Origin: an uncultured Candidatus Saccharibacteria bacterium
GTDB lineage: Bacteria > Patescibacteriota > Andersenbacteria > UBA10190
DNA: 64,000 bases
NCBI GenBank assembly: GCA_964371255.1
Contig: CAYJKV010000004.1
Location: 39,613-103,612, forward strand
Direction: 5' to 3'
A model generated the notes under the pieces. It saw only the letters and a list, made by a program, of their open reading frames with translations, had not been told where the DNA came from and made no database searches. A program made the translations under genes and the position numbers. This document shows, piece by piece, positions 2,193-61,353 of the stretch (position 1 is the first letter of the stretch; each line of letters starts with the position of its first letter).

Positions 2193-2481
2193 ACTAAAAC
2201 AATAGTTGCTCTAATATAAATCTTTATTGACTTTTGTCAACAGGATAATGGAACGAAGAGTGTGAATCAGTCTGGAGCTAGAGTGATGTCTAGTAATATC
2301 TATTCCGTTCAAGTAGTTAAGTGGGTAGGGAGAATCGACTTAACAAATCAATGGCTTATTAGAACTATCCGTTCATGGATAGTTCTAAGCGTGCTGGAAG
2401 GAGGTTTATGGCGTGCGTCAAAAGCGGCCCTAAAATGAATATGACCCAGTCCCAGGCGGGAAAAGGCGGATATATTAGGCT

Positions 2482-2958: not shown

Positions 2959-3276
2959 TTAGGGTAAGGGCGTTGGAGACGGGTAGGGTGGCAATAGCGT
3001 TGGAGACGGGTAGGGTGGCAATAGTGTTGGAGACGGGTAGACCTGTGTCGTAACGCGTCGAGCATTTAGAAAGGTTACAAATTTAGTTGCAGCAAAAAGT
3101 AAAATAAGAAGAATAATTGCCTCTCCGATTTTAATAATAAGTGGTCTTTTGGGGTGTGGATTTGTGTTGGCTTTTGCGTCAGTTGGGGTCAGTGGTGTTG
3201 CGTCGGGGGACGCAAGGGGTGTGGGGTTTTCTGGTGCAGGTTTCTCAGTTTGGTTAGTTGGAACCTGGTTGTTCAT
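2959..3276 (-). CDS. small single-pass membrane protein with a C-terminal PYPSPTLLP tandem repeat (hypothetical)
   Basis: 105 aa ORF with a TM segment IIKIGEAIILLILLFAATKFVTFL. Its C-terminus is encoded by a 27-bp tandem repeat. Confidence 0.4.
   Translation of the reverse strand: MNNQVPTNQTEKPAPENPTPLASPDATPLTPTDAKANTNPHPKRPLIIKIGEAIILLILLFAATKFVTFLNARRVTTQVYPSPTLLPPYPSPTLLPPYPSPTPLP
2963..3040. repeat. 27-bp tandem repeat of about 2.8 copies (unit gttggagacgggtagggtggcaatagc)
   Basis: Read directly from the sequence. It encodes the PYPSPTLLP repeats of the 2959..3276 ORF. Confidence 0.8.
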
Positions 3277-3364: not shown

Positions 3365-4413
3365 CTAGGGGTTAGATTGAAGAACTTTTAACGGATAAAG
3401 TAGGTGCGTCGACAGATCAAGTCGGCCGACACCTATCAGGGTGGAGAACTGGTCATGGTAAATAGCATAAAGGTGTTGTTTGCTTGGTAGGGGTGGGGGG
3501 CCAGGCAAAGAGAGATCGGGCTGGAGAGGGCTAGTTAATTGTGTAAGGGTTTTACCTGTAATCCCCTGCTCCCCTATCGTCCGGCCTTGAATGAATTGTG
3601 CGACGTTGACATCTGATAAGTTTATTTTTGGCAGGTGAGCGACTAGGGTTGTAGCTGGCAGGAGACTGTCTTTGATGGTGGTTAAATTCAATTGATTTAA
3701 TTTGACTGAATCAGCAATTTTATGCGGACCAATGCGGGTACGGCGTAATTGCTGGACGTAAGCGCCGGTCTTGAGAGCGATTCCCAGATCGCGGGCGAGG
3801 GAACGGATATAGGTACCGGTGGAGCAGGTAATAGTAAGGGAAAGGCTTGGGTAGTTGAAGGCAGTTAGTTTGATGTCGTGAATGGTAACCAGACGAGGAG
3901 CAAGTGAAGCTTTTATCCCCCGCCGGGCGATGTTATAAGCTCTCTCCCCGGCAATTCTTACGGCGGAGTAGGCTGGTGGTGTCTGCTGGATAGAACCGAT
4001 AAATTGGTTTAAGGTTTTTTGGATTTGAGAGACAGAAGGTCTAGCCTCCTCAACACCGGGTGTTTTATTATTAACACCCGGTGTTTTCCCGGCTAGCGAA
4101 GAGGTGATTTGGCCGGTAAGGTCGTCGGTATCGGATGAGGCGCCGAGAATGAAGGTGGCGTGGTACTCTTTGTCCCAAGCATGAGAATACTCAATCAGGC
4201 GGGTGGCGGAGCCGATGGCAACTAGCAGTACACCAGTAGCGAAAGGGTCGAGGGTGCCAGTGTGGCCTACTTTCAACTGGAGCCGCCGTGAGGTGAAGGC
4301 CGTCTTATTAAATAATGGCGGATGACTAGCAACAAGTAAGCGGCGGATTTGCGCTACAACATCGTGAGATGTTAATTTCGCTGGTTTGTCGATGTTGAGA
4401 AGACCGGATAGGG
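3365..4413 (-). CDS. truB: tRNA pseudouridine(55) synthase TruB, carrying an in-frame low-complexity insertion
   Basis: LLNIDKPAKLTSHDVV...GHTGTLDPFATGVLLVAIGSATRL...YHATFILGASSDTDDLTGQI matches the TruB catalytic core (GHxGTLDP). The likely start is a GTG near 4413; the ATG at 4513 would translate the 'tgaccaat' repeat and is unlikely to be genuine coding sequence. The insertion is AGKTPGVNNKTPGVEEARPS. Confidence 0.8.
4041..4097. repeat. near-palindromic element of about 57 bp inserted in-frame in truB, homologous to 21742..21797 in uvrB
   Basis: tagcctcctcaacaccgggtgttttattattaacacccggtgttttcccggctagc aligns at roughly 80% identity with the uvrB copy. It contains the palindromes aacaccgggtgtt and aacacccggtgtt. 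Confidence 0.75.
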
Positions 4414-4484
4414 TTTTCACAGGAGTATAGTATTGATAAATAATTATAACTTGATCATTAGTGGTGGTCCTTACGATTTTATAA

Positions 4485-4538
4485 ATGACCAATGACCAAT
4501 TTCCAATGACCAATCAAATCCTAATACCAAATGACCAA
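4485..4538. repeat. short tandem oligo repeat (atgaccaat / ccaaatgaccaa)
   Basis: atgaccaatgaccaatttccaatgaccaatcaaatcctaataccaaatgaccaa lies upstream of truB. It is related in style to the ccaaatgccaaa family. Confidence 0.6.
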
Positions 4539-19880: not shown

Positions 19881-21107
19881 ATGATCATAGAACAACCATA
19901 TTTAAGGACGAACCAAGCTGGCGTTAGTGTACGTGCGAAGGTTCAAGTCGAAACAAGCCGCCACTTGTCGCGTGAATTGTGGTTTGAAGTTAATGACAGT
20001 AACGGGCAGTACCTAATGGCATCTTTCGATCCTTTTGTGGTGGGAGTGTTAATGTTAGCTATGTCGTTGGGTGAAGATATCAAAATCAACGGTAATTTAT
20101 CGCCAAAGCTGATTTATGGCTTGAAACAATATCAGCAATATTTTCATTATTGGTTTAAAGACAGATTGCAGGTGGTTGATATTGTGGCTAGTGCGGGCGA
20201 GGAGATGGATGGTGACCATAGGCAAGAAGCAGTCGCCAGTTTTTTTTCTGGTGGAGTTGATTCCTTTTATACACTATGGAGTCATCTACCAGAGCAAGAG
20301 AGAGTTGTCGCCAATCGGCTTACTCATTGTGTTTTCGTGCATGGTTTTGATATTCCGATTAACGATGTAAGAACGTTTGATACGGCGTTTGTGCACTATG
20401 AAAAAATGATGGAGCGGATGGGGATTCAACTGATTGGCGTCAGGACGAATCTGAAGGAACTTTTGATCCATTGTAATGTTGGTTGGGGCATGACGCATGG
20501 TACCGCGCTAGGAGCAGTGGGAATGTTGTGGCAAGGTCTAGTTGGTCGAATGTATATTCCATCAACACAGAAATATTCAGTAACCGAGCCGTGGGGGAGT
20601 AATCCAGTTGTTGATCCGATGTTGTCACTTAATCAGCTAGATTTTGTGCATCACGGGGCACATATGGCAAGGTTGGATAAAATTACCGAGATTTGTCATT
20701 GGCCGGTTGTTTATGATGCTATGCGTGTTTGTTGGTTGCGGCCTAATGGGATTAATAATTGTGGTCGGTGTGAAAAGTGTCTGCGGACAATGATGGCTTT
20801 GGAAATTGAAGGAACCTTGCGTTGTTTTGGTACCTTTCCGAGTAAGCGGGTGGTTAATTGGTCTAAGTGGAAGGTGGTAGATTATTACGAGAAAGGTTAT
20901 TTGGAGGAGCTCAAGGAGAGAGCCGAGCAAAGAAAGAGATTTGATTTGTTGGCGATTATGGAAAAGATACAGCAGAGGTCTAAGTGGTTGCGTGGAGCAT
21001 ATTGGTTAAGGAAAGAACTTTGGTACAAGGGCGGATACATGTTCTTACGGGTAAGAGATTATTGGAGACAGCTGGTTGTGAAAACATTGAAAGGAAAAGA
21101 CTACTAA
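19881..21107 (+). CDS. PP-loop ATP pyrophosphatase family protein; probable N-acetyl sugar amidotransferase (WbuX/WbpG/PseA-like, QueC-like fold)
   Basis: SGGVDS PP-loop motif and a C-terminal Cys cluster NCGRCEKC. It is 408 aa, transcribed divergently from asnB, inside the glycan locus. Confidence 0.55.
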   Translation: MIIEQPYLRTNQAGVSVRAKVQVETSRHLSRELWFEVNDSNGQYLMASFDPFVVGVLMLAMSLGEDIKINGNLSPKLIYGLKQYQQYFHYWFKDRLQVVDIVASAGEEMDGDHRQEAVASFFSGGVDSFYTLWSHLPEQERVVANRLTHCVFVHGFDIPINDVRTFDTAFVHYEKMMERMGIQLIGVRTNLKELLIHCNVGWGMTHGTALGAVGMLWQGLVGRMYIPSTQKYSVTEPWGSNPVVDPMLSLNQLDFVHHGAHMARLDKITEICHWPVVYDAMRVCWLRPNGINNCGRCEKCLRTMMALEIEGTLRCFGTFPSKRVVNWSKWKVVDYYEKGYLEELKERAEQRKRFDLLAIMEKIQQRSKWLRGAYWLRKELWYKGGYMFLRVRDYWRQLVVKTLKGKDY

Positions 21108-23206
21108 GGTTGTTTTAGTTTGATGATAGCGTCTCTTAAAGTGGCGGCTCGTTCGAATTCTAGATTGCGGGCGGCCAGTTCCATCTTGCTGGTCAACTCC
21201 TTAATGATGCGGAGGCGTTCATCGGGCGGTATTTCGTCCGGATCTAGATCATCGATAAGGGCTGGTGTGCGAGCGGTGATGGTGCTGGTCTTAATAGCTT
21301 TTTGGATGGAGTGAGGGGTGATGTGATGGCGCTTGTTATAAGTTTCTTGGATGGCGCGGCGGCGGTTGGTTTCATCAATAGCCTGTTGCATGGAGCCGGT
21401 GATTCGATCGGCGTACATGATGACTTGTCCACGGAGATGCCGGGCAGCGCGGCCCATAGTTTGGACTAGAGTGGTACTGGAGCGTAAGAAACCTTCTTTA
21501 TCGGCATCCATGATGGCTACCAGGGATACTTCTGGCAGGTCCAAACCTTCACGCAGCAGATTAATGCCTACTAATACGTCATATTTACCAAGGCGTAGGT
21601 CGCGCAGTATGACTAGTCGTTCCATCGTGTCGACATCGGAGTGCAAGTAGGCACACTTGATACCCATTTCAATTAAATAGGTGGAGAGCTCCTCCGCCAT
21701 TCGTTTAGTGAGAGTGGTGACAAGGACGCGGCTGGTGAGAGTAGCCTCCTCAGCGCTGGGTGTTTTTTTGCCAACACCTAATGTTTTCCCGGCCGGCTTG
21801 ACGATCAAGCCGGGTGCGTCAGACGAAGCTGACACATCTGGTGTGTCTGCATTCTGAGGTGGCTTAGTACGTTTTTTGATTTCATCGATAATGTCGTCAA
21901 CTTGGTTAGCCAGTGGGCGGATAGAAATTATCGGATCCAGAAGACCGGTGGGGCGGACTAATTGCTCGACTATTTGCTTGCTAGTATTGAGTTCGTACTG
22001 GCTGGGAGTGGCCGAGACAAAAATAGTTGGACTGAGACGGTCTTCAAACTCATTGAATTTGAGGGGACGATTATCGCGGGCGGAGGGAAGGCGAAAACCG
22101 AATTCGATCAAGCTATCTTTGCGGGCTTTGTCGCCCCCATACATGGCGCCAATTTGCGGAATTGTCATGTGAGACTCATCGGCAAAGACAAGAAAACCCT
22201 GTGGTCCATAAGCATGTATAAAATAATCAAGGAGAGTAGTGGGCGGCTGGCCAGATTGGCGGCCATCAATATGGCGAGAATAATTTTCGATGCCGGAAAC
22301 GACGCCGACTTGCTGGATCATTTCCAGGTCGTAGGTGGTTCGTTCGGCAATGCGCTGGGCTTCAATCAGTTTCTGGCGTTTGGTGAAATGATCGACTTGT
22401 TCGGTCATTTCTGATTTGATAGCGGACAGAGCATTAGTTAGCTGGGTAGGGTTGGAAATGAAAAAGGTGGCAGGAAAGATGGTGGCCGAGTCGACTGCAG
22501 AGATGACATCGCCGGTTAAGTCGTGCAGATGAAGAAGTTTTTCAATAGTCGGACCGTAAGATTCAATGCGCAGCAACCGCTCTTCGCCGGAGGGGTGAAT
22601 GTCGATAGTGTCCCCGCGGACACGGAAAGTACCGTGCGGCAGATCAACATCATTGCGGGTGTATTGGAGCTTAGTCAGCTGCTGTAGAATTTCACGGCGT
22701 GAAAACGGCCCATGTTTTTTTAGCTGCAGGCGCTGGTTAAAATAATTAGCTGGCGAGCCGAGTCCATAGATGCAAGAAACGGAAGCGACCACGATAGTGT
22801 CGGTCCGGGTAAGAATTGCCTCCATGGCAGAGTGGCGCAGACGATCAATCTCTTTATTGATGCTGGCGTCTTTGGCGATATAGGTGTCGGTACGGGCCAG
22901 GTATGCTTCCGGCTGGTAATAATCGTAGTAAGAAACAAAGTACTCGACGGCATTGTCTGGAAAGAATTCCCTGAACTCTTCTGCCAGCTGGGCTGCTAAA
23001 GTTTTGTTGTGACTGATAACTAAGGCGGGTTTTTGGGTTTTGGCAATAACAGAGGCCATGGTGTATGTTTTGCCGCTGCCGGTGACGCCTAATAAAGTTT
23101 GTCGCTGGTAACCGTTTTTTAGTCCCGACACCAACTTCTTGATAGCTGGCGGCTGGTCGCCGGATGGTTTGAAAGGCGCTCGTAAATTGAATTTATGAGG
23201 AGTCAC
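21104..23206 (-). CDS. uvrB: excinuclease ABC subunit B, carrying a roughly 45 aa in-frame low-complexity insertion
   Basis: GVTGSGKTYTMASVIAKTQKPALVISHNKTLAAQL...EYFVSYYDYYQPEAY and a C-terminal UVR domain are present. The insertion is KPPQNADTPDVSASSDAPGLIVKPAGKTLGVGKKTPSAEEATLTS. Confidence 0.95.
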   Translation of the reverse strand: MTPHKFNLRAPFKPSGDQPPAIKKLVSGLKNGYQRQTLLGVTGSGKTYTMASVIAKTQKPALVISHNKTLAAQLAEEFREFFPDNAVEYFVSYYDYYQPEAYLARTDTYIAKDASINKEIDRLRHSAMEAILTRTDTIVVASVSCIYGLGSPANYFNQRLQLKKHGPFSRREILQQLTKLQYTRNDVDLPHGTFRVRGDTIDIHPSGEERLLRIESYGPTIEKLLHLHDLTGDVISAVDSATIFPATFFISNPTQLTNALSAIKSEMTEQVDHFTKRQKLIEAQRIAERTTYDLEMIQQVGVVSGIENYSRHIDGRQSGQPPTTLLDYFIHAYGPQGFLVFADESHMTIPQIGAMYGGDKARKDSLIEFGFRLPSARDNRPLKFNEFEDRLSPTIFVSATPSQYELNTSKQIVEQLVRPTGLLDPIISIRPLANQVDDIIDEIKKRTKPPQNADTPDVSASSDAPGLIVKPAGKTLGVGKKTPSAEEATLTSRVLVTTLTKRMAEELSTYLIEMGIKCAYLHSDVDTMERLVILRDLRLGKYDVLVGINLLREGLDLPEVSLVAIMDADKEGFLRSSTTLVQTMGRAARHLRGQVIMYADRITGSMQQAIDETNRRRAIQETYNKRHHITPHSIQKAIKTSTITARTPALIDDLDPDEIPPDERLRIIKELTSKMELAARNLEFERAATLRDAIIKLKQP
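21742..21797. repeat. second copy of the roughly 57 bp near-palindromic in-frame element (see 4041..4097)
   Basis: tagcctcctcagcgctgggtgtttttttgccaacacctaatgttttcccggccggc. It is read in the same frame and orientation as the truB copy. Confidence 0.75.
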
Positions 23207-23940: not shown

Positions 23941-24091
23941 TAAGATGGTTAATAATTTTCAATTTTCAAAGCTCAATTCTCAAATAATTTTTAATGATTC
24001 AATCTATCAAACATTAGTAATTTTATCTTTGTCGTATATATTTGAAAATTATAGACTTGAATGCTTTATTGAAGATTGAAAATTGGTAATT
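23941..24091. repeat. AT-rich dispersed element of about 150 bp with terminal inverted 'aattttcaa / ttgaaaatt' motifs (copy A of 3)
   Basis: Roughly 80% identical to 25121..25285 over about 100 bp; 39088..39185 is a shorter third copy. It ends at the FemAB-like gene start. Confidence 0.7.
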
Positions 24092-25120
24092 GAAAATTAT
24101 ATGAATGTTCGTCTAGCGACAAACCAGGATAAGGAGAGATGGAATGAAGTGGTGATAAATTCGCCGCAGGGTTCTTTTATGCAAGCTTGGGAGTGGGGTG
24201 AGATGCAGCTCTCTTTTGGGCTGCCAGTGTGGCGACTGATAGTGGAAGATGGAGGGTCGTGGGCGGGGGTGGCGCTGGTGATTGAACGTAGTGTGCTGTT
24301 CGGGCGGTGTTGGTTGTATGTGCCGCAGGGACCGCTTTATGAGAGCGAGCCGAGAGTCTGGCGGCTGGTTAATGATAAATTGCGCGAGTTGGGGGCGAGT
24401 CAGAAAGCGATATTTGTTCGTTGTGATCCAATAATCACTCAGGCTAACGGGAACGATGTTTTGTTATTACAGAGCGGCTGGCTGAAGTCCGAGCGAGAGG
24501 TGCAGCCGCGTCATACACTGATGGTGGATCTGACCCAGAGCGAGGACCAATTATTAGAACAGATGCGCCAAAAAACCAGATATAACATCAGGTTGGCACA
24601 GCGGAAAGGCGTAACGGTGAGGTTTTCTCAGGCAAAAGGTGATGTAGAAAATTTTTTGGAATTAACGCGAGAGGTGGAAAGCCGCGGACTGTTCCGTTAC
24701 CATCCCGCGCATTATTACCGGACAATGCTGGAGGTCTTGGGGCCGCATGGTTTGTTGGAGATTGGGGTAGCGGAAATGGAAGGAACGGTTTTGGCGGTAC
24801 ATTTATTATTGAAGTTTGGGAAGAGGGTGACATACGGGCACGGGGCGAGTCTGGCCGGCAAGAGAGAATTGATGGGGCCGCATTTGTTGCAGTGGGAATC
24901 AATTAAGCGGGCGAAAGAACAAGGATACCTGACATATGATTTTTTTGGGGTGGCGGCTGACCAGTCCGACAGCGATCATCCGTGGGCAGGCATTACGCGT
25001 TTTAAGTTAGGTTTTGGCGGTAAGCGAGCAGATTATATTGGTGCGTATGATTTAGTGTTGGATCAGACGTTATATGCCATCTACAATATGGCGCGCCGGA
25101 TGAGGGGAGTTCTGAGATAA
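24092..25120 (+). CDS. FemAB family peptidyl/aminoacyl transferase (peptidoglycan interpeptide bridge formation family, GNAT fold)
   Basis: 345 aa with FemAB-like architecture (MQAWEWGEMQ...YHPAHYYRTMLEV...GHGASLAGKRELMGPHLLQWESIKRAKEQGYLTYDFFGV). Confidence 0.75.
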   Translation, partial: ENYMNVRLATNQDKERWNEVVINSPQGSFMQAWEWGEMQLSFGLPVWRLIVEDGGSWAGVALVIERSVLFGRCWLYVPQGPLYESEPRVWRLVNDKLRELGASQKAIFVRCDPIITQANGNDVLLLQSGWLKSEREVQPRHTLMVDLTQSEDQLLEQMRQKTRYNIRLAQRKGVTVRFSQAKGDVENFLELTREVESRGLFRYHPAHYYRTMLEVLGPHGLLEIGVAEMEGTVLAVHLLLKFGKRVTYGHGASLAGKRELMGPHLLQWESIKRAKEQGYLTYDFFGVAADQSDSDHPWAGITRFKLGFGGKRADYIGAYDLVLDQTLYAIYNMARRMRGVLR

Positions 25121-25285
25121 ATTTTCATTTTTTCCCTAGAGGATCCCTTCAGGACAAAGCTCAATTTTTTATAAATGCCAATGATGCAATTATCGAACAT
25201 TGGTAATTTAAGTTTTGTCGTATATGTTTGAAATTTTTAGTTTGAATGTTTGTCTGCAGGTTGAAAATGGGTAATTGAAAATTAG
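25121..25285. repeat. AT-rich dispersed element, copy B
   Basis: See 23941..24091. It ends at the start of the Mur ligase ORF. Confidence 0.7.
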
Positions 25286-38769: not shown

Positions 38770-39099
38770 TTAGCGGGGCAAGTCCTGGTTTTGTAAAAGC
38801 GTTTCCAGGCTATCGTCAGGAGCCATTTTATTGCGGCGAACGAGGCCACAGACTTCACATTCTTGAATCAAATCTAGTTTGGTCGGGTCTGTTCCTTCAT
38901 ACGAAATGGTCGGCATCAGGCCATGACATGAAGCGGAGCGATCGCCGGGGACGCGGCCGTCAACATGTTTACTGGTCAGGCAATGGGGACAGTGGTTGCG
39001 AAATGTTTGGGGAGCAGGCGGGACGTTGGCATCGCACTTGGCGCAGATAAAGGGATCATTACGGGGGATGAAGTTGCGACGAGAATTTTCAATTTTCAT
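38770..39099 (-). CDS. RNHCP domain-containing protein
   Basis: FRNHCPHCLTSKHVD...ECEVCG is the RNHCP zinc-ribbon-like signature. Its first codons (MKIENS) are encoded by the AT-rich dispersed element. Confidence 0.7.
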   Translation of the reverse strand: MKIENSRRNFIPRNDPFICAKCDANVPPAPQTFRNHCPHCLTSKHVDGRVPGDRSASCHGLMPTISYEGTDPTKLDLIQECEVCGLVRRNKMAPDDSLETLLQNQDLPR

Positions 39100-39185
39100 T
39101 TTTCAATTTTCAAATAATTTCAAGCAGTCAATTTTCAACCTGACACTGTTTGCGAATTGAAAATTGGGTTTTGAAAATTGGTTAT
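39088..39185. repeat. AT-rich dispersed element, short copy C
   Basis: gaattttcaattttcatttttcaattttcaaataattt...ttgcgaattgaaaattgggttttgaaaattgg shares both termini with copies A and B. Confidence 0.6.
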
Positions 39186-55040: not shown

Positions 55041-56930
55041 TTGTTTGTAACTAACACTATAATGAAATCACTATTTAGGTCGCAGTTAACATACAAAATC
55101 CTAAAATTTCTTAGCAGGAACCAGAAGTCGCACTATTTGGCGGAAATAGCCAGGAGCATTCAGTCCGATCCGGGTAACACCACAAAAGAATTAAAACGTT
55201 TAACTGAAGAGGGGTATTTGGTTCAGAGCGAAGAAAATGGCCGAAAATATTATGCATTAAGCGTTGACCTGCCGCATTTTAGTAAACTTGTCGGTTTATT
55301 AGAAAATGAGGCTGATCAAGAGTTCCAAAAATACTTTAGTATAGAGTGGATGCTGGGAGAGGACATTCCTAACATGACCCCATTTTTTAGCATGATCTGG
55401 CTAAATTGTTTTGTAGACGAGTTTGCCCAGCCAGGTGGCAAAGCTTATCGCAAGATTGCAGGAATCTACAAAGATTATCACTTATGGTTTTATTTCGAGA
55501 AAGAGAGTGCTAAGGAGGTCGCCAGCCACATTGTCAATCGTTTTGCGGCTGACCCTGACTTCATGACGCAAATCAACAAAGAGATTGTGGCTCATTCAGA
55601 TAAACTGCGTTCCTATTCCGAGACTATTCCGGAGACTGGATTGGAAAAGCTGTCGGCAAAGCAATTGTGGCAGATATTCAAACAGCATGAAGATATACAT
55701 ACAGCTTATTATCAGTGGGGATGGCTGCCGGTGGCGGCAGATATGTTTACTGATGAGTTGACGGAGAAAGGTAAAGTGGTTTTGCGCGAACACGGGGCTG
55801 GAGAAGATGAAGTGAATGAATATTTGGTGGTACTTACCCAACCGACCAAACCGTCGCTGATGAAACAAGAAGCTGATGAGCTTATTGATATCGCCTTGGA
55901 CGTGCAAAAGGACGAAAAACAAGCCGCTTTATTTTACGAGCTAATGCGGAAGTTCAAAGAGGACGAGGTTAAGGAGTTTGGGCTGTATACCCACAGCCCA
56001 CAATACGAAAAGGCTTTAGAAGAAAAGGTGCGGGAATTGATTAGTGAAATACCGCAAGATATATTGCAACGTTTACAAGAGCATCAGGCTAAGTATTTTT
56101 ACACTAGATTTCTTTTTACAGAGGAACAAGGCGTTTACAGTTTTGAGCATTATCTGAAGGGGTTGGTGCGTTTAGTTTGCCGAGGCGACGAGTTGCGACT
56201 AGAAAGAGAAAAGAGCAAATGGGAAATTAAAGTAGCTGAAAAAAAGAAAAAAGAGGTTAGTAGAACAATGCACCTTGAGTCCAAATGGATCACTTTCTTT
56301 GAAGAGTGGGGTGGCTTTATGGTGACGAAGATTTACCGCCGATATGCCCAGTTGTTTGCGCTGTCTAAAATGAGCGCTGTATTGGAAGAAATTGGCCGAC
56401 GACTAAGCTTACCGCAAAAGGAAGTTAGTTTTATGACCAGCGAAGAGATTGAAGCTGCTTTGCTTGGCAAGGCAATAGATAAAGATGTGATTAAGGCGCG
56501 GGTGCCGTTTTCTGTCTACTATGCTGATAAGGATACGCATAAGTTTTACATTGGCAGCGAAGCTAAACGTGCCGCAAAGCTTATTCAGAAAGAAGTGATT
56601 GAACAGGTTAATGAATTTACGGGGCAATGTGGCTGTCAGGGTTATGCTAAAGGCAAGGTTAAAATAGTTAATGTGGTGGCAGATATGAGTAAAGTAGTGC
56701 CGGGAGATATTTTGGTTTCCATATCAACACAGCCTGATCTATTACCGGCTATGAAAAAGGCAGCGGCATTTGTGACGGAACAAGGGGGGGTGACATCTCA
56801 TGCTGCGATTGTGGCGCGGGAGATGAATAAACCGTGTGTGATTGGCACAAAGATAGCAACCAAAGTTTTGAAAGATGGTATGGAAGTTGAAGTGGACGCA
56901 ACAAGGGGAAGGGTGACACTATTACAGTGA
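55041..56930 (+). CDS. winged-helix (ArsR/MarR-like) DNA-binding domain, a large middle domain and a C-terminal PEP-utilizer mobile (swivel phosphohistidine) domain
   Basis: N-terminus LTYKILKFLSRNQKSHYLAEIARSIQSDPGNTTKELKRLTEEGYLVQSEENGRKYYAL (wHTH). C-terminus ...GGVTSHAAIVAREMNKPCVIGT (PEP-utilizers His motif). 629 aa. It is the first gene of a five-gene coupled operon. Confidence 0.7.
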   Translation: MFVTNTIMKSLFRSQLTYKILKFLSRNQKSHYLAEIARSIQSDPGNTTKELKRLTEEGYLVQSEENGRKYYALSVDLPHFSKLVGLLENEADQEFQKYFSIEWMLGEDIPNMTPFFSMIWLNCFVDEFAQPGGKAYRKIAGIYKDYHLWFYFEKESAKEVASHIVNRFAADPDFMTQINKEIVAHSDKLRSYSETIPETGLEKLSAKQLWQIFKQHEDIHTAYYQWGWLPVAADMFTDELTEKGKVVLREHGAGEDEVNEYLVVLTQPTKPSLMKQEADELIDIALDVQKDEKQAALFYELMRKFKEDEVKEFGLYTHSPQYEKALEEKVRELISEIPQDILQRLQEHQAKYFYTRFLFTEEQGVYSFEHYLKGLVRLVCRGDELRLEREKSKWEIKVAEKKKKEVSRTMHLESKWITFFEEWGGFMVTKIYRRYAQLFALSKMSAVLEEIGRRLSLPQKEVSFMTSEEIEAALLGKAIDKDVIKARVPFSVYYADKDTHKFYIGSEAKRAAKLIQKEVIEQVNEFTGQCGCQGYAKGKVKIVNVVADMSKVVPGDILVSISTQPDLLPAMKKAAAFVTEQGGVTSHAAIVAREMNKPCVIGTKIATKVLKDGMEVEVDATRGRVTLLQ

Positions 56931-57877
56931 TGACCTACACCAAGACTTTCTCGGAAATATCAAAAAGCGATACGGCCATAGCCGGTGGCAAAGGGGCGTC
57001 ACTGGGCGAAATGACGCAAGCAGGCATTCAAGTGCCGCCTGGATTTGTGATTCTGGCACCCGCTTTTGATGAGTTTCTGAAAATTACTGACCTAAACGTG
57101 GAGCTGGATGCCATTTTGGACCAAGTGAACCATGAGGTAATGCACGAGGTGGATGACGCGTCAGAAAAGATTAAAGCCCTGATTTTGGGTAAAGAAATAC
57201 CGGCAAGTATGGCCAAGGAAATTATTTCTGCTTTCGATGAGTTAGACGCGGAATTCGTGGCTGTTCGTTCCAGTGCCACTTCTGAAGACTCCGCGGCGGC
57301 AGCGTGGGCGGGACAATTAGATACTTATCTCAATACGACCGAAGAAAATTTACTGGCCAATGTTAAAAAATGCTGGGCTTCGCTCTTTACGCCGCGGGCC
57401 ATTTTCTATCGTTTTGAAAAGGGATTACATGGGACACCAATTTCGGTCGCTGTCGTAGTCCAAAAAATGATCCAATCTGAAGTTTCAGGTATCGCTTTTT
57501 CGGTTCATCCTGTCACGCAAGATTACGACCAGCTAATTATTGAAGCTGGCTTCGGGTTGGGGGAGGCGATTGTCTCCGGCTCAGTTACACCAGACAGCTA
57601 TGTGATCGAAAAAAGCAGTTGGAAGTTACTCGATAAAAATATAACTACTCAAGAGCGGGGATTATTTCGTAAGGACGAAGGCGGCAATGATTGGCAAGAT
57701 ATTCCAACCACGAAAGGTGAGCAGCCGACGCTAACTGATGATGAAGTTATAGGCCTGGCAAAACTCATAGTTAAAATTGAGAGGCACTATGGTTTTCCCG
57801 TTGATGTTGAATGGGCACGAGAGAAGAATAGCTTTTATATCGTTCAAAGCCGTCCGATTACGACTCTGAATAAATAA
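56927..57877 (+). CDS. stand-alone PEP synthase/PPDK N-terminal ATP-grasp nucleotide-binding domain protein (PPDK_N)
   Basis: GGKGASLGEM...GIQVPPGFVI..., VAVRSSATSEDSAAAAWAGQLDTYLN and VVVQKMIQSEVSGIAFSVHP match the PEP synthase/rifampin phosphotransferase ATP-grasp domain. 316 aa, with no swivel or PEP-binding domain. ATGA overlap with the upstream gene. Confidence 0.8.
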   Translation: MMTYTKTFSEISKSDTAIAGGKGASLGEMTQAGIQVPPGFVILAPAFDEFLKITDLNVELDAILDQVNHEVMHEVDDASEKIKALILGKEIPASMAKEIISAFDELDAEFVAVRSSATSEDSAAAAWAGQLDTYLNTTEENLLANVKKCWASLFTPRAIFYRFEKGLHGTPISVAVVVQKMIQSEVSGIAFSVHPVTQDYDQLIIEAGFGLGEAIVSGSVTPDSYVIEKSSWKLLDKNITTQERGLFRKDEGGNDWQDIPTTKGEQPTLTDDEVIGLAKLIVKIERHYGFPVDVEWAREKNSFYIVQSRPITTLNK

Positions 57878-57890
57878 CGAAGAGAAAGTT

Positions 57891-59189
57891 ATGGCAGATA
57901 ACAAATGGCATTATCTTGGCAGATGGATTGAACCGGTATTGTCATGTGGTCTATGGTTGGAATGGAAAAACTTAACGGATGATATAGGACTTCATTTTAA
58001 AGGAGATATCGCCGTTTTGGATGGCTATCAGTATATTCTTAACGAAGATGTTAAAACAGCCAGTAAATTTTTGAATGACACAATCGTAAATAGCCCAGAA
58101 TGGTTTAATGTTTTTTTCAGACTTTGTGACGAGAAAATAGAGAAAGTATTATCGTTTAAGAATAAGAACGACCTGAGCGGCTTATTGATCGCTGCCACTA
58201 ATTCCTTGGGGCTAGTTACTATTCTGATAATGTTTGATATTGGGTATCAGAAATACATCAAAAAGATAGCGAAAAGACAAAACTTTGACGAAGAAGAATT
58301 TTTCTCTTTGGTCAAGCCGCATCGAAATACTTTGTTAATGGACTATATTCAGGAACTTAAGCAGCTGGATAAAAACAGTGAAGAGGCAAAAGAAAACTTT
58401 ATCAAGAAATATGGTTGGGTAGGAAAACATGTATTTCTGGGTGATGGTTTAACGCGTGAAAAGCTGGAACAGGAGCTGATTGATATTCCCAAACAAAAAA
58501 GTGCAAAAACCAAAGAAAGTATTAAGAAGTTGCCAAAAAAGTTGGCTGACCTATTGTCCCTTGGAAACAAGTTCGCTTTTTACCGCTCTTATATAGTTGA
58601 GTGCACCAATAGTGTCGTCTATGAGTACTGCCCAATTGTTAAAGAACTTGGCGAAAAGCGTGGCTTAATTTGGGATGATGTTTTACTTTTAGATTATCAG
58701 GAGGTTATTGACTTAAATGAGAAAAATGAAAAGCCTCACAATTTCGAGAAAAGGAGAAATGGCTACGGGAAAATAATAAAAGACGGCAAGAAAGTTATTG
58801 TCACGGGTGCCAGTTTAGAGAAGGAATTGAACAGGTTTCGGGAAAAAGTTGATAAAGATGTAAAAGAGATAAAAGGAATGGTTGCCTCTAAGGGGGGTAT
58901 CATTATAGGCATTGTGAGGGTTGTAGAGGAGTCGGCAATAATTTCCAAAATGAAGGAGGGTGATATCTTGGTGGCTAACGAGACTACTCCAGATTACGTT
59001 GTGGGCATGAAAATTGCTGGGGCTATTATAACCAATCAAGGAGGTATAACTTCTCACGCCGCAATTACCAGCAGGGAAATGGGTATTCCTTGTATAATCG
59101 GGACGAAAATCGCCACCCAAATTCTCAAAGACGGAGATTTGGTGGAAGTGGATGCAGAGAAGGGGATTGTGAGGAAGATTAATGGCTGA
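57891..59189 (+). CDS. PEP-utilizer mobile (swivel) domain protein with a unique N-terminal domain (paralog 2)
   Basis: C-terminus ...GDILVANETTPDYVVGMKIAGAIITNQGGITSHAAITSREMGIPCIIGTKIATQILKDGDLVEVDAEKGIVRKI. The roughly 320 aa N-terminal region is unrelated to known domains. Confidence 0.75.
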   Translation: MADNKWHYLGRWIEPVLSCGLWLEWKNLTDDIGLHFKGDIAVLDGYQYILNEDVKTASKFLNDTIVNSPEWFNVFFRLCDEKIEKVLSFKNKNDLSGLLIAATNSLGLVTILIMFDIGYQKYIKKIAKRQNFDEEEFFSLVKPHRNTLLMDYIQELKQLDKNSEEAKENFIKKYGWVGKHVFLGDGLTREKLEQELIDIPKQKSAKTKESIKKLPKKLADLLSLGNKFAFYRSYIVECTNSVVYEYCPIVKELGEKRGLIWDDVLLLDYQEVIDLNEKNEKPHNFEKRRNGYGKIIKDGKKVIVTGASLEKELNRFREKVDKDVKEIKGMVASKGGIIIGIVRVVEESAIISKMKEGDILVANETTPDYVVGMKIAGAIITNQGGITSHAAITSREMGIPCIIGTKIATQILKDGDLVEVDAEKGIVRKING

Positions 59190-59200
59190 CAAAGAAGGTT

Positions 59201-60253
59201 ATGGATATTAATAGTTTTGAGAGATCAGACTGGAATCAAATATGGGCAGGCGATTGGAGTTTGCTCTCCTGTTCGCAATTTGGCGAGCAGTACACGAAAA
59301 CTCTTATCGTCAATGGTAAAGTGTTTATGTCCCAAACTGTTCTTATGATTGAGGATGGTAAGAGCGCTGGCTTTATGACGCAGGCTGACAAAGACGCCTT
59401 TGGTAAGCATTTAGCCCAGGAGGTTGTTGATAATCCCAGCCGTGTCCAAGAAATTGCGGCTAATTTTAAACGACAGGTTGATTTGACGATGGAGTTGATG
59501 AATAAGTATAAAACCAGTGAAATCACCAAAGAAATTTACGAAGCTTTCTGGGAGCGCATACTGGAATACTACAAACCGCATGTGAATGTTAAGTATATTG
59601 TTGATTATCTTGATCCAGAACTGTTGAAAAAATATTTACCGGAGCTGGAAGAAGCACGGGTGTACGCTGAGCCTGTTTTCAAGCACTCGGAAGAATTTAT
59701 GCAGGCTATGGCGCAGCAACAAGGGGCTAAAATTGGTTATCCCACTGAACTAATATTGTGCTTGTTGATAGAAGAACTGCCATCGCTATGGAAGAGCGAA
59801 GCATTGCCAGCACAAGTAGTATTGCGACAGAGATATGATAGAAGTGCGTTGTTAGTTGATCTGTCTGATCAGTTGCTTTGCGTTGGTGATGAGGTGAGCG
59901 AGATTGATCAGTTTATCCATGGAGCGACGGAAGATGAAGTAATCAAAGGAGCAACAGCGTACCCAGGGCACGCGAAAGGAACCGTGCGAATTATCTTTGA
60001 TCCGACTAAAGCTGATCATTTTCAGAATGGCGACATTTTAGTAACTCACATGACGCGGCCGGAATACTTACTGATTATGAAAAAGGCTGCGGCTATCGTG
60101 ACTGAGGCTGGCGGCATATTGTCGCATGCGGCCATCACGTCACGCGAATTAAAAAAGCCGTGTGTGATAGGGACGAATAAGGCTACCAAGATATTGAAAG
60201 ATGGAGACCTGGTTGAGGTAGATGCGGATAAAGGGATTGTGAGGAAAATATGA
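59201..60253 (+). CDS. PEP-utilizer mobile (swivel) domain protein with a unique N-terminal domain (paralog 3)
   Basis: C-terminus ...GDILVTHMTRPEYLLIMKKAAAIVTEAGGILSHAAITSRELKKPCVIGTNKATKILKDGDLVEVDADKGIVRKI. Confidence 0.75.
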   Translation: MDINSFERSDWNQIWAGDWSLLSCSQFGEQYTKTLIVNGKVFMSQTVLMIEDGKSAGFMTQADKDAFGKHLAQEVVDNPSRVQEIAANFKRQVDLTMELMNKYKTSEITKEIYEAFWERILEYYKPHVNVKYIVDYLDPELLKKYLPELEEARVYAEPVFKHSEEFMQAMAQQQGAKIGYPTELILCLLIEELPSLWKSEALPAQVVLRQRYDRSALLVDLSDQLLCVGDEVSEIDQFIHGATEDEVIKGATAYPGHAKGTVRIIFDPTKADHFQNGDILVTHMTRPEYLLIMKKAAAIVTEAGGILSHAAITSRELKKPCVIGTNKATKILKDGDLVEVDADKGIVRKI

Positions 60254-61353
60254 AGAAGGATGGGAGTAATATTGCTGCTCGTATTAAGGAATTGAAACTG
60301 AAGCCAGGACTGCGCCGGGACATTTCGCTCTTTGGGGAAAGTTGTATAGCGCTCGGCTATACTCGAAATCTAAAGGAATTAACTGGTTTCGGCGTAAGTG
60401 CCTTTGGGGGGATAAGTATCGAGAATCAATATTTATCATTAATTGATGTTGAGGATTTATCCAGAAAGGTTGATATTTATTTAAGTCAACTTGGATCGGA
60501 AAGTTTAATTGGGGGAGAGCTAGATCGATTTTATACTCGATACAAGCATGAGCGTCAAGTATATGAGAAGATTTGGGCGGCTTACCAGGCTCGGAAGCCG
60601 GAGGATTATCTTAGGAAAATTGTGAGTTTATATCCTGACCATGCGGCGACGGTCGGGTTTTACAACAGCTTAATGCGTTATTTGGGAGAGGAAGAAAGCA
60701 AGGGACAATTGTCACCAAAGCTGGTAAGCCGCATAGGAATGGAGAGAAACGAAGTAGCTGGTCTTTATCCGAAAATCGAAAGGATATTAAAGTTATTGGC
60801 GGAGAAATTTTCAGAGACGGAGGGGGAGGTAGGGGAGATGATCAGGTTTTGTTTACGAGGCGAGATTCAGCAATGGTTAGAGAGTGGCGAGTTAGCAGGA
60901 GAAACTGAACTTGGAGAGCGGCAGCGGCAATACGTTCACTTGCGGATAGCGGAGTCTGATGAAGAATTATTATCCACTGACAACGGGGATTATGTAGCAA
61001 TAAAGGAGTGGTTATTTGGGAATCAATCAAATTCGACGGGAGTTATCCGAGGCGTGGGAGCATTTCCAGGCAAAAGATCAGGTGTGGTGTATAAGGGAGA
61101 CAAGACGGTTATTTCGGTGCCTACATATGATTTTATATTGGTAGCGGTGCAGACGCATCCTGATTGGGTACCATTAATCAAAAGAGCCAAAGCGATAGTG
61201 ACTGATGAGGGGGGTCGCTTATGTCATGCGGCTATAACAGCGCGGGAACTTAAGGTTCCTTGTGTCATTGGCACCAAAATGGCCACGCAAATTCTAAAAG
61301 ACGGTGATCTAGTGGAAGTGGATGCAGCGAAGGGGATAGTGAGAAAAATATGA
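60250..61353 (+). CDS. PEP-utilizer mobile (swivel) domain protein with a unique N-terminal domain (paralog 4)
   Basis: C-terminus ...HPDWVPLIKRAKAIVTDEGGRLCHAAITARELKVPCVIGTKMATQILKDGDLVEVDAAKGIVRKI. ATGA overlap with the upstream gene. Confidence 0.75.
   Translation: MKKDGSNIAARIKELKLKPGLRRDISLFGESCIALGYTRNLKELTGFGVSAFGGISIENQYLSLIDVEDLSRKVDIYLSQLGSESLIGGELDRFYTRYKHERQVYEKIWAAYQARKPEDYLRKIVSLYPDHAATVGFYNSLMRYLGEEESKGQLSPKLVSRIGMERNEVAGLYPKIERILKLLAEKFSETEGEVGEMIRFCLRGEIQQWLESGELAGETELGERQRQYVHLRIAESDEELLSTDNGDYVAIKEWLFGNQSNSTGVIRGVGAFPGKRSGVVYKGDKTVISVPTYDFILVAVQTHPDWVPLIKRAKAIVTDEGGRLCHAAITARELKVPCVIGTKMATQILKDGDLVEVDAAKGIVRKI

What the first reader, a model, noticed from the sequence alone, without database searches (positions are those of the whole stretch)
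4041..4097. Near-palindromic element of about 57 bp inserted in-frame, and in the same reading frame, into two housekeeping genes (truB and uvrB)
truB (4041..4097) and uvrB (21742..21797) share an approximately 80% identical DNA segment (tagcctcctca..gggtgtttt......aacacc...tgttttcccggc..c) containing near-palindromes (aacaccgggtgtt). In both genes it lies inside the ORF, in the same orientation and frame, and encodes a low-complexity loop (AGKTPGVNNKTPGVEEARP in TruB; AGKTLGVGKKTPSAEEATL in UvrB). Canonical TruB and UvrB lack this loop. This is the behaviour described for Rickettsia palindromic elements (RPEs): selfish palindromic repeats that persist as in-frame insertions in essential genes. 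Nothing of the kind has been reported for this lineage.
Basis: seen in the sequence. Interest (0 to 1): 0.65.

Follow-up and report, generated by a model that had tools for sequence, protein, structure and literature searches.

The report
Palindromic repeat inserted in-frame in genes
A roughly 55-base hairpin-forming DNA repeat sits in-frame inside truB and uvrB of this Andersenbacteria (CPR) genome and inside at least 16 other unrelated gene families in related genomes, which makes it a miniature counterpart of the Rickettsia palindromic elements in a lineage where none had been described.

Summary
Window 4041-4096 (truB) and 21742-21794 (uvrB) share 52 nt at 81% identity, in the same orientation and frame, where chance predicts none.

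The RPE-like reading is supported. Scans of public genomes and metagenomes recovered about 30 distinct copies in Andersenbacteria-type CPR bacteria. They lie in-frame in MetRS, ValRS, PheT, GatB, TatD, prepilin peptidase, glycosyltransferases, a VirD4-like ATPase, DsbA and surface proteins. One locus is intergenic.

The anatomy, on the coding strand, is a copy-specific closing stem of 4-11 bp, a purine internal loop (GGGAA/GAGGA), a 13-bp stem (AACACCNGGTGTT paired with AACACCN'GGTGTT, with N and N' covarying) and an 8-nt loop. Either orientation is read in the frame that gives ...TPGV...TPGV....

The truB copy is intact and polymorphic between near-identical strains. The uvrB copy is an old, decayed relic.

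The best explanation is a selfish palindromic repeat that survives only in permissive surface loops. How it is mobilised is unknown. It is not a member of the RPE families. I rate it a new variant of a known kind.

The parts
4041..4096 (-). Intact copy of the palindromic element inside truB. On the coding (minus) strand it reads CTAGCC GGGAA AACACCGGGTGTT AATAATAA AACACCCGGTGTT GAGGA GGCTAG and encodes LAGKTPGVNNKTPGVEEAR.
   Evidence: The RNA fold is -34.4 kcal/mol (z -5.35) and the DNA fold has z -6.05, both predicting the long hairpin. It is the longest perfect hairpin in the 64-kb window. CM R1 scores it 76.4 bits.
4091..4096 (-). 5' arm (CTAGCC) of the copy-specific closing stem of the truB copy. 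It pairs with 4041-4046 (GGCTAG).
   Evidence: Closing stems differ in sequence between copies but stay complementary (helix 1: 8 of 10 pairs have changes on both sides).
4052..4085 (-). Inner 13-bp stem (4073-4085 pairs with 4052-4064) and 8-nt apical loop (4065-4072) of the truB copy.
   Evidence: 13 of 13 Watson-Crick pairs. In the family alignment the helix is 98.6% paired, and the central pair occurs as UA, AU, CG, GC and UG.
21742..21794 (-). Degenerate (old) copy of the element inside uvrB. On the coding strand it reads GGCC GGGAA AACATTAGGTGTT GGCAAAAA AACACCCAGCGCT GAGGA GGCTA and encodes AGKTLGVGKKTPSAEEA.
   Evidence: Only 9 of 13 inner pairs remain and there is no excess folding energy (z -0.07). 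CM R1 scores it 55.9 bits. The orthologous insertion is more intact in relatives at 80-82% UvrB identity (L001 has 13 of 13 pairs).
21740..21859 (-). The whole 40-aa UvrB insert (residues 450-489), which is absent from solved UvrB structures. The element makes up its C-terminal part.
   Evidence: phmmer splits the match to 9gy7_E into query 3-449 and query 490-699, which meet at chain residue 444. 114 of the 120 nearest UvrB homologues have a short connection here.
21793..21813 (.). Second small palindrome, CCGGCTTGA-CGA-TCAAGCCGG (9-bp stem), abutting the uvrB element. It encodes PGLIVKPA.
   Evidence: (hairpin scan).
21831..21847 (.). Unit-like palindrome GACACATCTGGTGTGTC (coding strand GACACACCAGATGTGTC, encoding DTPDVS). 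It is probably a relic of a single unit of the same family. Relatives have AACACACCAGGTGTGTC (NTPGVS) here.
3365..4513 (-). truB ORF, the host gene. The database protein P0121 corresponds to 3365-4492.
   Evidence: PF01509 and PF16198. In the AF2 model, residues 131-147 have pLDDT below 50, forming a disordered loop that covers most of the element-coded peptide at about residues 134-150.
21104..23206 (-). uvrB ORF, the host gene.

Best explanation
The feature is a family of very short (about 50-65 nt) selfish palindromic repeats, MITE/RPE-like, resident in Andersenbacteria-type CPR bacteria.

**Shown: anatomy.**
- Each copy can fold, as DNA or as RNA of either strand, into one long hairpin.
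- The parts are a copy-specific closing stem, a conserved purine internal loop (GGGAA/GAGGA), a 13-bp stem and an 8-nt loop. The loop is sometimes 5, 9 or 11 nt, or is replaced by another repeat.

**Shown: distribution and reading frame.**
- Copies sit in many unrelated genes and at least once between genes.
- In both orientations they are read in the one frame that gives a Thr-Pro-Gly-Val-rich, stop-free peptide. Forward this is AGKTPGVxxxTPGVEEA and reverse it is ASSTPGVxxxTPGVFPA.
- Insertions lie in loops and inter-domain linkers.
- Old copies decay or collapse.

**Inferred: mechanism.**
- The hairpin is what the propagation machinery needs. That machinery would be an unidentified trans-acting enzyme or replication template switching onto another copy.
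- Selection removes every insertion that is out of frame, in the wrong phase or in a structured part of a protein. What remains looks like tailored in-frame loops in essential genes.
- After insertion, intrastrand template switching (quasi-palindrome correction) keeps the arms complementary and extends the palindrome into the flanks. This would produce the copy-specific closing stems.
- Slippage later deletes one arm, leaving single-unit forms, or the whole inner hairpin, leaving an AGKEA-type relic.

**In this window.** The truB copy is young and intact. It differs between near-identical strains through a divergent tract of about 110 nt that looks like a recombination tract. The uvrB copy is an inherited relic.
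For: **Dispersal.**
- Of 27 exact hits in GTDB genomes, 11 are full or single-unit elements, and six MAGs have 1-3 hits each.
- 16 of 20 metagenome loci are true copies.
- nhmmer and CM R1 add more copies within the same loci.

**Host genes by Pfam.** UvrB, TruB, MetRS, ValRS, PheT, GatB, TatD, peptidase A24, GT4 (three loci), a TrwB/VirD4-like ATPase, DsbA-like, Big and Laminin_G_3 proteins. The intergenic copy is in L050 and L054.

**Recent common origin.**
- L016 (GT4) and L020 (TatD), in one MAG, differ at 1 of 49 nt.
- An identical 47-nt core occurs in several different MAGs.

**Structure.**
- For the long hairpin, 86% of cells are paired, 12 pairs change on both sides, and 0 of 500 shuffles reach the observed score.
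- The two-small-hairpin model has no compensatory change in its unit helices.
- L004 and L018:2557 carry AACCCTTGGTGTT...AACACCAAGGGTT, which keeps only the long hairpin.
- Intact copies fold with z from -5 to -7.

**DNA-level rather than strand-specific RNA.** There are 10 G.T against 11 A.C mismatches in the stems.

**Frame.** F0 and R0 are open in 27 of 28 copies, but F1 is also open in 25 of 28. Even so, all of about 20 coding sites use F0 or R0.

**Permissive sites.**
- The AF2 model of TruB is disordered at residues 131-147.
- UvrB has a clean insert between two aligned blocks.
- GT4, GatB and MetRS copies lie between Pfam domains.

**No host need for the hairpin.** The window uvrB copy has lost it (z about 0).

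**Turnover.**
- Single-unit forms occur in L002 and L008.
- An apex-expanded form occurs at the same orthologous site in L052.
- An AGKEA relic with the closing stem retained occurs at a MetRS site that is filled in another genome.
- truB is present or absent between strains whose flanks are 100% identical.
Against: - No transposase or other mobilising gene was identified. Whole genomes could not be searched.
- No target-site duplication and no conserved terminal inverted repeats were found, so the element is not a textbook MITE.
- No unambiguous filled-versus-empty pair with clean junctions was found. The one polymorphism seen (truB) looks like homologous recombination rather than transposition.
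- uvrB and truB carry the element at the same site in lineages only 64-66% (UvrB) or 42-48% (TruB) identical to the window proteins. This needs ancient insertion with many losses, a hotspot, or lateral replacement.
- Forward orientation is favoured about 17 sites to 3, and this is unexplained.
- Covariation in the closing stem could also reflect selection for a function.
- Only two copies lie in this 64-kb window.
Confidence: 0.72

Rival explanations
1. It is a host-exapted structured nucleic-acid signal. The hairpin, in mRNA or in DNA, would be a functional cis element such as a protein-binding site, a translational pause or co-translational folding signal using the SD-like GAGGAGG, or an mRNA stability element. 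It would be recruited repeatedly into genes and kept by selection.
For: Compensatory changes occur in both helices, including synonymous compensatory changes at an orthologous MetRS site. The purine internal loop GGGAA/GAGGA is strictly conserved. Forward orientation is favoured, which places GAGGAGG in the mRNA.
Against: Old orthologous copies lose the structure with no sign of constraint (window uvrB, z about 0). The element occurs in both orientations and between genes. G.T and A.C mismatches are equally common, so no RNA strand is favoured. The host genes share no pathway or localisation. No Rfam family matches.
Confidence: 0.1
2. It is a protein-level module. A flexible AGKTPGV...TPGVEEA linker peptide would be selected for its own sake, for example as a modification or interaction site, and moved between genes by recombination.
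For: The same peptide frame is used at every coding site, in both orientations. The peptide sits in linkers and loops.
Against: Synonymous positions (GGG AAA ACA ... GGT GTT) are nearly invariant. The only freely varying third positions, the two Pro codons, covary with each other as base pairs. An intergenic copy exists. PheT reads half of the element in another frame. Hosts include cytoplasmic, membrane and secreted proteins.
Confidence: 0.06
3. It is a one-off event confined to this genome: ectopic gene conversion or templated repair copied a segment between uvrB and truB, with no repeat family involved.
For: Only two copies were found in 64 kb, and none elsewhere in about 190 kb of close relatives' loci.
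Against: About 30 distinct copies occur in at least 16 other gene families in related genomes.
Confidence: 0.01
4. The element is not translated. It would be bypassed by the ribosome, as with the T4 gene 60 gap or mitochondrial byps, or spliced from the mRNA. The hairpin plus the SD-like GAGGAGG ahead of a landing GCN codon would be the signal.
For: The size (about 50 nt), the hairpin, the flanking Ala codons (GCC ... GCN) and GAGGAGG just 5' of the 3' junction resemble bypass signals. This resemblance rests on my own knowledge and was not tested.
Against: Every copy is stop-free in the host frame. Loop-length variants differ by multiples of three (5, 8, 11), and the one exception is compensated by the flank. 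Reverse-orientation copies lack the SD-like motif yet are also open. There is no stop after a take-off codon.
Confidence: 0.03

Closest known systems
Rickettsia palindromic elements (RPE-1 to RPE-10; Ogata et al. 2000 and 2002, as summarised in PMC10969869 and PMC1779305)
   Same: Both are interspersed palindromic repeats found in intergenic DNA and, unusually often, in-frame inside unrelated housekeeping ORFs of a small-genome, host-dependent bacterium. Both encode a conserved peptide tolerated at protein surfaces. Both show lineage-specific proliferation alongside old inherited copies. PheT is a host in both lineages.
   Different: RPEs are 100-150 bp, whereas this element is about 50-65 nt (17-19 aa). 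The phylum differs (CPR/Patescibacteria against Alphaproteobacteria), and no sequence relationship is shown. This palindrome is read in the same peptide frame (TPGV) in both orientations. Its closing stem is copy-specific.
REP / REPIN elements mobilised by RAYT transposases
   Same: Both are short repeats whose active form is a long imperfect hairpin made of two inverted units. Arms show compensatory variation between copies. Copy number reaches dozens per genome.
   Different: REPINs are essentially extragenic and have a conserved 5' tetranucleotide and an associated single-copy RAYT gene. Here most copies are intragenic and in-frame, and no RAYT could be sought.
Bacterial MITEs that make in-frame fusions (ERIC, Correia/NEMIS, Anabaena MITEs, QMITE1; review PMC10969869)
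   Same: Both are small, non-autonomous, hairpin-forming and multi-copy, and both occasionally lie inside ORFs.
   Different: MITEs have conserved terminal inverted repeats and direct target-site duplications. This element has neither: its ends GGGAA and GAGGA are not complementary, and its flanks are inverted, not direct, repeats. MITEs in ORFs usually disrupt them.
[quoted passage not shown]
   Same: The coding DNA has dyad symmetry, so the same kind of peptide is encoded in either orientation. Both are linked to mobility and horizontal spread.
   Different: PARCELs are 25-residue units in long tandem arrays within ORFs of unknown function, mostly membrane or surface proteins. They are not single insertions in conserved enzymes.

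Membership tests
Rickettsia palindromic elements (RPE) | Sequence membership in one of the RPE families, found in Rickettsiales | tested here: not met
   By UvrB and TruB best hits the lineage is Candidatus Andersenbacteria, in the Patescibacteria/Parcubacteria group. RPE HMMs were not available, so homology itself was not scored. Length and lineage differ.
Rickettsia palindromic elements (RPE) | Length 100-150 bp | tested here: not met
   The core is 44-50 nt, or 56-70 nt with the closing stem. The RPE length is taken from PMC1779305.
Rickettsia palindromic elements (RPE) | Palindromic, interspersed, present both in intergenic DNA and in-frame in unrelated ORFs, with a conserved encoded peptide | tested here: met
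MITE | Conserved terminal inverted repeats | tested here: not met
   The conserved ends GGGAA and GAGGA do not pair. The paired closing stem differs in sequence from copy to copy.
MITE | Direct target-site duplication of fixed length | tested here: not met
   The flanks are inverted repeats of 4-11 bp. L016, L020, L040 and L051 have no direct repeat. Apparent direct repeats (CTAG at truB, CGCGCC at MetRS) are themselves palindromic.
MITE | Small, non-coding-capacity, multi-copy element | tested here: met
   About 30 distinct copies were found. Up to 3 copies lie within a 6-kb locus and 4 within one gene.
MITE | A related autonomous IS or transposase sharing its ends | not testable with these tools
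   Only short loci around the hits were available, and whole genomes of the carriers could not be scanned.
REP/REPIN | Predominantly extragenic location | tested here: not met
   Only 1 locus is intergenic, out of roughly 20 independent loci.
REP/REPIN | Hairpin made of two inverted units, with compensatory variation | tested here: met
REP/REPIN | Associated RAYT (IS200/IS605-like TnpA) gene flanked by the repeats | not testable with these tools
   No genome-wide protein search of the carrier genomes was possible.
Known structured RNA families (Rfam 15) | A match at or above a family's gathering score | tested here: not met
   The best hit scored 18 bits against a gathering score of 63 (generic miRNA-hairpin models), with E above 0.2.

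The most novel reading that the evidence does not exclude
The copy-specific closing stems are not a secondary effect. They would be the signature of a new propagation mechanism. In one version, the element spreads by hairpin-templated (fold-back) DNA synthesis that writes an inverted copy of the target flank. In the other, it inserts specifically at the tips of pre-existing hairpins, including the apex of older copies, which would explain the nested forms in L003, L012, L048, L038 and L051. Either way it would be a class of bacterial mobile DNA without transposase-type ends or target-site duplications, tuned to be translated harmlessly in both orientations.
Probability: 0.15. Interest if true: 0.85.

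Novelty: new variant of a known kind. Interest (0 to 1): 0.66.

Why it matters
In-frame selfish DNA inside essential genes has essentially one textbook case, the Rickettsia RPEs. A second, independent and much smaller example has turned up in the Candidate Phyla Radiation, another lineage of tiny-genome, host-dependent bacteria. This suggests that reductive genomes with little intergenic space push repeats into coding loops.

It also matters in practice:
- These repeats break or chimerise CPR metagenome assemblies, as seen in the CAYSWF01 contigs.
- They inflate apparent lineage-specific insertions in marker proteins such as UvrB, TruB and the aminoacyl-tRNA synthetases.
- They give a strain-level marker, since truB is filled in one near-identical population and carries a different sequence in another.

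The inverted rather than direct flank repeats and the orientation-independent reading frame give concrete, testable leads to the mechanism.

Tried and rejected
- **Peptide searches.** A 31-aa window peptide searched against 1.84 billion representatives returned only 7 unrelated tandem-repeat proteins. A single 17-aa insert is below significance in such databases.
- **Viral contigs.** One pattern gave 0 hits and a shorter one gave 2. The one inspected (L055) is a lone half-site, and the other (L056) could not be read. There is no support for a phage origin.
- **Rfam.** Nothing came near any gathering score.
Rejected in favour of one long hairpin, on the compensatory changes and on the L004 and L018 variants.
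- **Intrinsic-terminator idea for the reverse strand, as an explanation of the orientation bias.** The consensus scan finds no terminator-like site at the truB copy. The tail after the stem is TTCCC, which is too T-poor.
- **RNA strand-specific selection.** G.T and A.C mismatch counts are equal, 10 against 11.
- **Target-site duplication model.** It fits truB and MetRS only because their flanks are themselves palindromic, and it fails at L016, L020, L040 and L051.
- **More copies or AGKEA-type relics in the window.** None were found beyond the two known copies.
- **Ogata 2002 (PMC186582).** The paper is not held.
Full report
**1. The observation**

The two segments exist as described. The repeat finder lists 4042-4093 and 21742-21793 as a 52-nt pair at 81% identity (D6). 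Each half of the consensus matches only these two places in 64 kb, against 0.00 and 0.04 expected from dinucleotide shuffles.

Both lie in minus-strand ORFs whose products are TruB (PF01509 and PF16198) and UvrB (full domain set). The element has the same orientation and codon phase in both. It encodes AGKTPGVNNKTPGVEEARP in TruB and AGKTLGVGKKTPSAEEATL in UvrB.

Against solved structures:
- UvrB has a clean 40-residue insert. Query residues 3-449 and 490-699 align to residues 2-444 and 444-657 of 9gy7_E.
- TruB has a 14-residue gap against 1sgv.

Both copies recur in independent ENA assemblies of nearly the same strain:
- uvrB: 4 mismatches in 4103 nt, none inside the element.
- truB: the protein is identical.

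This is therefore neither chance nor an assembly artefact. By its best UvrB and TruB hits the organism is a Candidatus Andersenbacteria bacterium, in the Parcubacteria group of Patescibacteria/CPR.

**2. Is it a family?**

Within the window plus seven loci from relatives (about 190 kb), nhmmer found the element only at the uvrB and truB sites. Collection scans changed that picture.
- The pattern CACCNGGTGTTGAGGAGGC in one genome per GTDB species gave 27 hits, where roughly 17 are my own estimate of the chance expectation.
- Eleven of those hits carry the element, nine as the full two-unit form. Six MAGs have 1-3 hits each, among them two named Andersenbacteria from Rifle.
- The pattern CCGGGAAAACACCNGGTGTT in JGI metagenomes gave 20 loci, of which 16 are true copies.
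- nhmmer and a covariance model built from 22 copies then found further copies inside the same loci. In total there are about 30 distinct copies.

Host ORFs identified with Pfam:

| Host gene family | Locus / note |
|---|---|
| UvrB | window and relatives |
| TruB | window, L004, L012, L048 |
| MetRS | two sites |
| ValRS | L018:5325, reverse orientation |
| PheT | L032 |
| GatB | L047 |
| TatD | L020, reverse orientation |
| Prepilin peptidase A24 | L040 |
| GT4 glycosyltransferases | three loci: L016 (reverse), L038, L051 |
| TrwB/VirD4-like ATPase | L023, L036 |
| DsbA-like protein | L037 |
| Conserved membrane protein | four genomes: L008, L013, L034, L052 |
| Ada-Zn-like protein | L013:5495 |
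| Big-domain protein | L035 |
| Laminin_G_3 protein, at least 2192 aa | four copies, L041 |

One locus (L050 and L054) lies between convergent genes.

Two copies in one MAG, in GT4 and in TatD, differ at 1 of 49 nt. An identical 47-nt core occurs in several MAGs. This is the signature of a dispersed repeat with recent common ancestry.

**3. Anatomy**

On the coding strand of the window copies the element reads as follows:

[closing-stem arm, 4-11 nt, different in every copy, usually ending GCC] GGGAA AACACCNGGTGTT (loop) AACACCN'GGTGTT GAGGA [GGC + complementary arm]

The loop is usually 8 nt and sometimes 5, 9 or 11 nt.

The evidence nevertheless favours one long hairpin in which unit 1 pairs with unit 2:
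- The central N and N' covary: UA 10, AU 5, UG 3, CG 2, GC 1.
- Three further pairs of that helix show changes on both sides.
- The two-small-hairpin model shows none in its unit helices.
- L004 and L018:2557 carry AACCCTTGGTGTT...AACACCAAGGGTT, which preserves only the long hairpin.

The closing stem covaries strongly. Eight of its 10 pairs change on both sides, and for the structure as a whole 0 of 500 shuffles reach the observed score.

Intact copies fold far better than shuffles. The window truB copy gives -34.4 kcal/mol with z -5.35 as RNA and z -6.05 as DNA. Other copies give z of -6.8 and -7.3. The truB hairpin is the longest perfect hairpin in the window.

G.T and A.C mismatches in the stems are equally frequent, 10 against 11. 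Nothing therefore points to selection on one RNA strand, and the symmetry is a property of the DNA. No Rfam family matches.

**4. Reading frame and sites**

Of the six frames:

| Frame | Peptide from the common-variant core | Status in 28 copies |
|---|---|---|
| F0 | AGKTPGV..TPGVEE | open in 27 |
| R0 | ASSTPGV..TPGVFP | open in 27 |
| F1 | PGKHLVL.. | open in 25 |
| F2 | | closed in all 28 |
| R1 | | closed in 11 |
| R2 | | closed in 7 |

All of about 20 independent coding sites use F0 (about 17) or R0 (3: GT4 in L016, TatD in L020, ValRS in L018). PheT reads the first half in F1 and returns to F0 through a 9-nt loop.

Because the unit is palindromic, both orientations give TPGV...TPGV. Openness alone does not explain this exclusive use of one phase, so I infer selection on the peptide: small, flexible residues in F0 and R0, against basic-hydrophobic or Cys/Trp-rich peptides in the other frames.

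Insertions lie in loops or linkers:
- The AF2 model of the window TruB has pLDDT below 50 at residues 131-147, between a strand and a helix.
- GT4 copies lie between the two Rossmann domains.
- GatB and MetRS copies lie between Pfam domains.
- DsbA and VirD4-like copies lie in terminal linkers.

**5. History of the two window copies**

*uvrB.* The insertion is shared by the four closest relatives with a sequence on record (80-82% identity). It is absent from the next tier (65-71%) and present again in one UvrB at 64% identity.
- The L001 copy is still perfect (13 of 13 pairs).
- L002 has collapsed to a single unit.
- The window copy has decayed to 9 of 13 pairs and has no excess stability.
- The 40-aa insert also holds a 9-bp palindrome (21793-21813) and a unit-like palindrome (21831-21847). 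The site has accumulated several events.

*truB.* Among the 120 nearest homologues the element or short relics occur in six, mostly in a different clade (P0141, P0147, P0149, P0159, P0183). The closest relatives P0122-P0129 lack it.
- The near-identical strain in L006 has 100% identical DNA on both sides.
- It has a divergent tract of about 110 nt that replaces the element with a different small palindrome, CCTGTCTACCGGACAGG.
- That tract includes about 26 nt of mostly synonymous differences in the adjoining truB sequence.
- This looks like a homologous recombination tract rather than a fresh transposition.

**6. Turnover and nesting**

At one orthologous site in a membrane protein the element exists in three states:
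- a single unit (L008);
- the standard form (L013, L034);
- a form with a 39-nt apical insertion from a second repeat family, GCCGAAGCC..GGCGAAGGCTGGG, encoding PAEASGEGW (L052).

L038:2443-2572 has its apex replaced by about 85 nt. L003, L012 and L048 show an element nested inside the truncated stem of another. In L051 the closing stem looks like a split unit.

At a MetRS site that is filled in CAYSWF01, JBDRMS01 has only GCGAGCC-GGTAAAGA-GGCTCGC (AGKEA). That is the closing stem and loop remnants without the inner hairpin. Its closing stem differs from the filled copy by a compensatory pair of synonymous changes.

CAYSWF01 contigs are chimeric exactly at elements: TruB-MetRS-TruB, and membrane protein-PyrG. 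This shows that the repeat confuses assemblers.

**7. Mechanism**

*Shown:*
- A dispersed, hairpin-forming DNA repeat.
- Translated-frame compatibility at every coding site.
- Location in permissive loops.
- Decay, collapse and nesting.

*Inferred:*
- The element is selfish. The hairpin serves its propagation, and purifying selection filters insertions by frame and site.
- The flanks are inverted, not direct, repeats of variable length (4-11 bp), and no conserved terminal inverted repeats exist. Classical cut-and-paste with staggered cuts is therefore unlikely.
- Two models fit.
  - (a) Template switching. A nascent strand copies another element, folds back and copies its own flank. Later quasi-palindrome correction keeps the arms complementary and extends them. 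In TatD the arm GACGC belongs to the conserved R-D-A-H motif, while its complement lies in inserted DNA (by my reading of the sequence). This fits model (a).
  - (b) Insertion at the tips of pre-existing short hairpins, including older copies. The nested forms fit model (b).
- No mobilising gene could be sought.

**8. Comparison and novelty**

Functionally this is the RPE phenomenon: interspersed palindromes, in-frame in unrelated housekeeping genes, in a small-genome symbiont (PMC10969869, PMC1779305).

It is not a member of the RPE families on length and lineage, and it fails the MITE criteria of terminal inverted repeats and target-site duplication. Like REPINs it is a two-unit hairpin, but it is mostly intragenic. 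Like PARCELs its dyad symmetry gives the same peptide in both orientations, but it is a single insertion in enzymes rather than a tandem array.

Searches of the held literature found nothing on such elements in CPR, Patescibacteria or Andersenbacteria. That library is incomplete, so this is absence of evidence only.

It is a new variant of a known kind, with an unresolved and possibly unusual propagation mechanism.

Noticed in passing
window 1-64000: GC skew on the + strand is very strong and uniform: +0.22 to +0.33 over most of the window, dipping to +0.09 to +0.14 at 40-52 kb. It holds regardless of which strand the genes are on. This is unusually high for a bacterium.
   Followed up: no
L006:4780-4830 (truB of a near-identical strain): At the very site where the window has the element, this strain has a different small palindrome, CCTGTCTACCGGACAGG (PVYRTGRQ). 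Similar ...GRQ... peptides occur at another TruB position in P0123-P0126 and P0130. This may be a second family of coding palindromes.
   Followed up: partly
L052:12860-12900, L013:5518-5556, L048, L038:2470-2550, L050:11700-11790: A second GC-rich repeat, GCCGAAGCC..GGCGAAGGCTGGG (peptide PAEASGEGW), is found nested in the apex of the element and also in an intergenic region.
   Followed up: partly
L035:501-552 and L035:1508-1541: Other long in-frame palindromes of unrelated sequence occur in a Big-domain protein: GTACGTACAAGACTCGGTCTTGTACGTACAAGACCGAGTCTTGTACGTA and AAGAAGTCCCGGTCTTCTTGCAAGAAGACCGGGACTTCTTG. Coding palindromes may therefore be a general feature of these genomes.
   Followed up: no
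L012:2100-3400 and L013:1113-3359 (CAYSWF01 contigs): These contigs appear chimeric exactly at element copies. A TruB N-terminus is joined to a MetRS fragment, then a run of N, then a TruB C-terminus. A membrane protein is fused to a PyrG GATase domain. This looks like repeat-induced misassembly in a co-assembled MAG.
   Followed up: partly
window 23954-24099, 25191-25284, 39084-39180: AT-rich intergenic repeat families, such as ATTGAAAATTGGTAATTGAAAATT and AATTTTCAATTTTCA, occur in direct and inverted copies upstream of several genes (D2, D4, D7, D11, I2, I4, I9). They could be promoter or operator motifs.
   Followed up: no
window 55041-61353: Four adjacent same-strand ORFs (629, 316, 432/350 and 367 aa) share a conserved 92-nt 3' end at 61-84% identity, encoding ...PCVIGTK.ATQILKDGDLVEVDA.KGIV... 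(D1). This is a tandem paralogue cluster.
   Followed up: no
window 2963-3043: Three tandem 27-nt repeats (GGTAAGGGCGTTGGAGACGGGTAGGGT) lie at the 3' end of the minus-strand ORF 2959-3276 (D5).
   Followed up: no
window 2359-2388: A perfect 12-bp hairpin, TTAGAACTATCC-GTTCAT-GGATAGTTCTAA, is the second-longest in the window. It lies outside every ORF of 100 aa or more.
   Followed up: no
L004:12267-12644: A bAvd/23S_rRNA_IVP-family gene (PF22296, PF05635), a family linked to diversity-generating retroelements, lies 1.3 kb from the element-bearing truB in a related genome. No link to the element was found.
   Followed up: no
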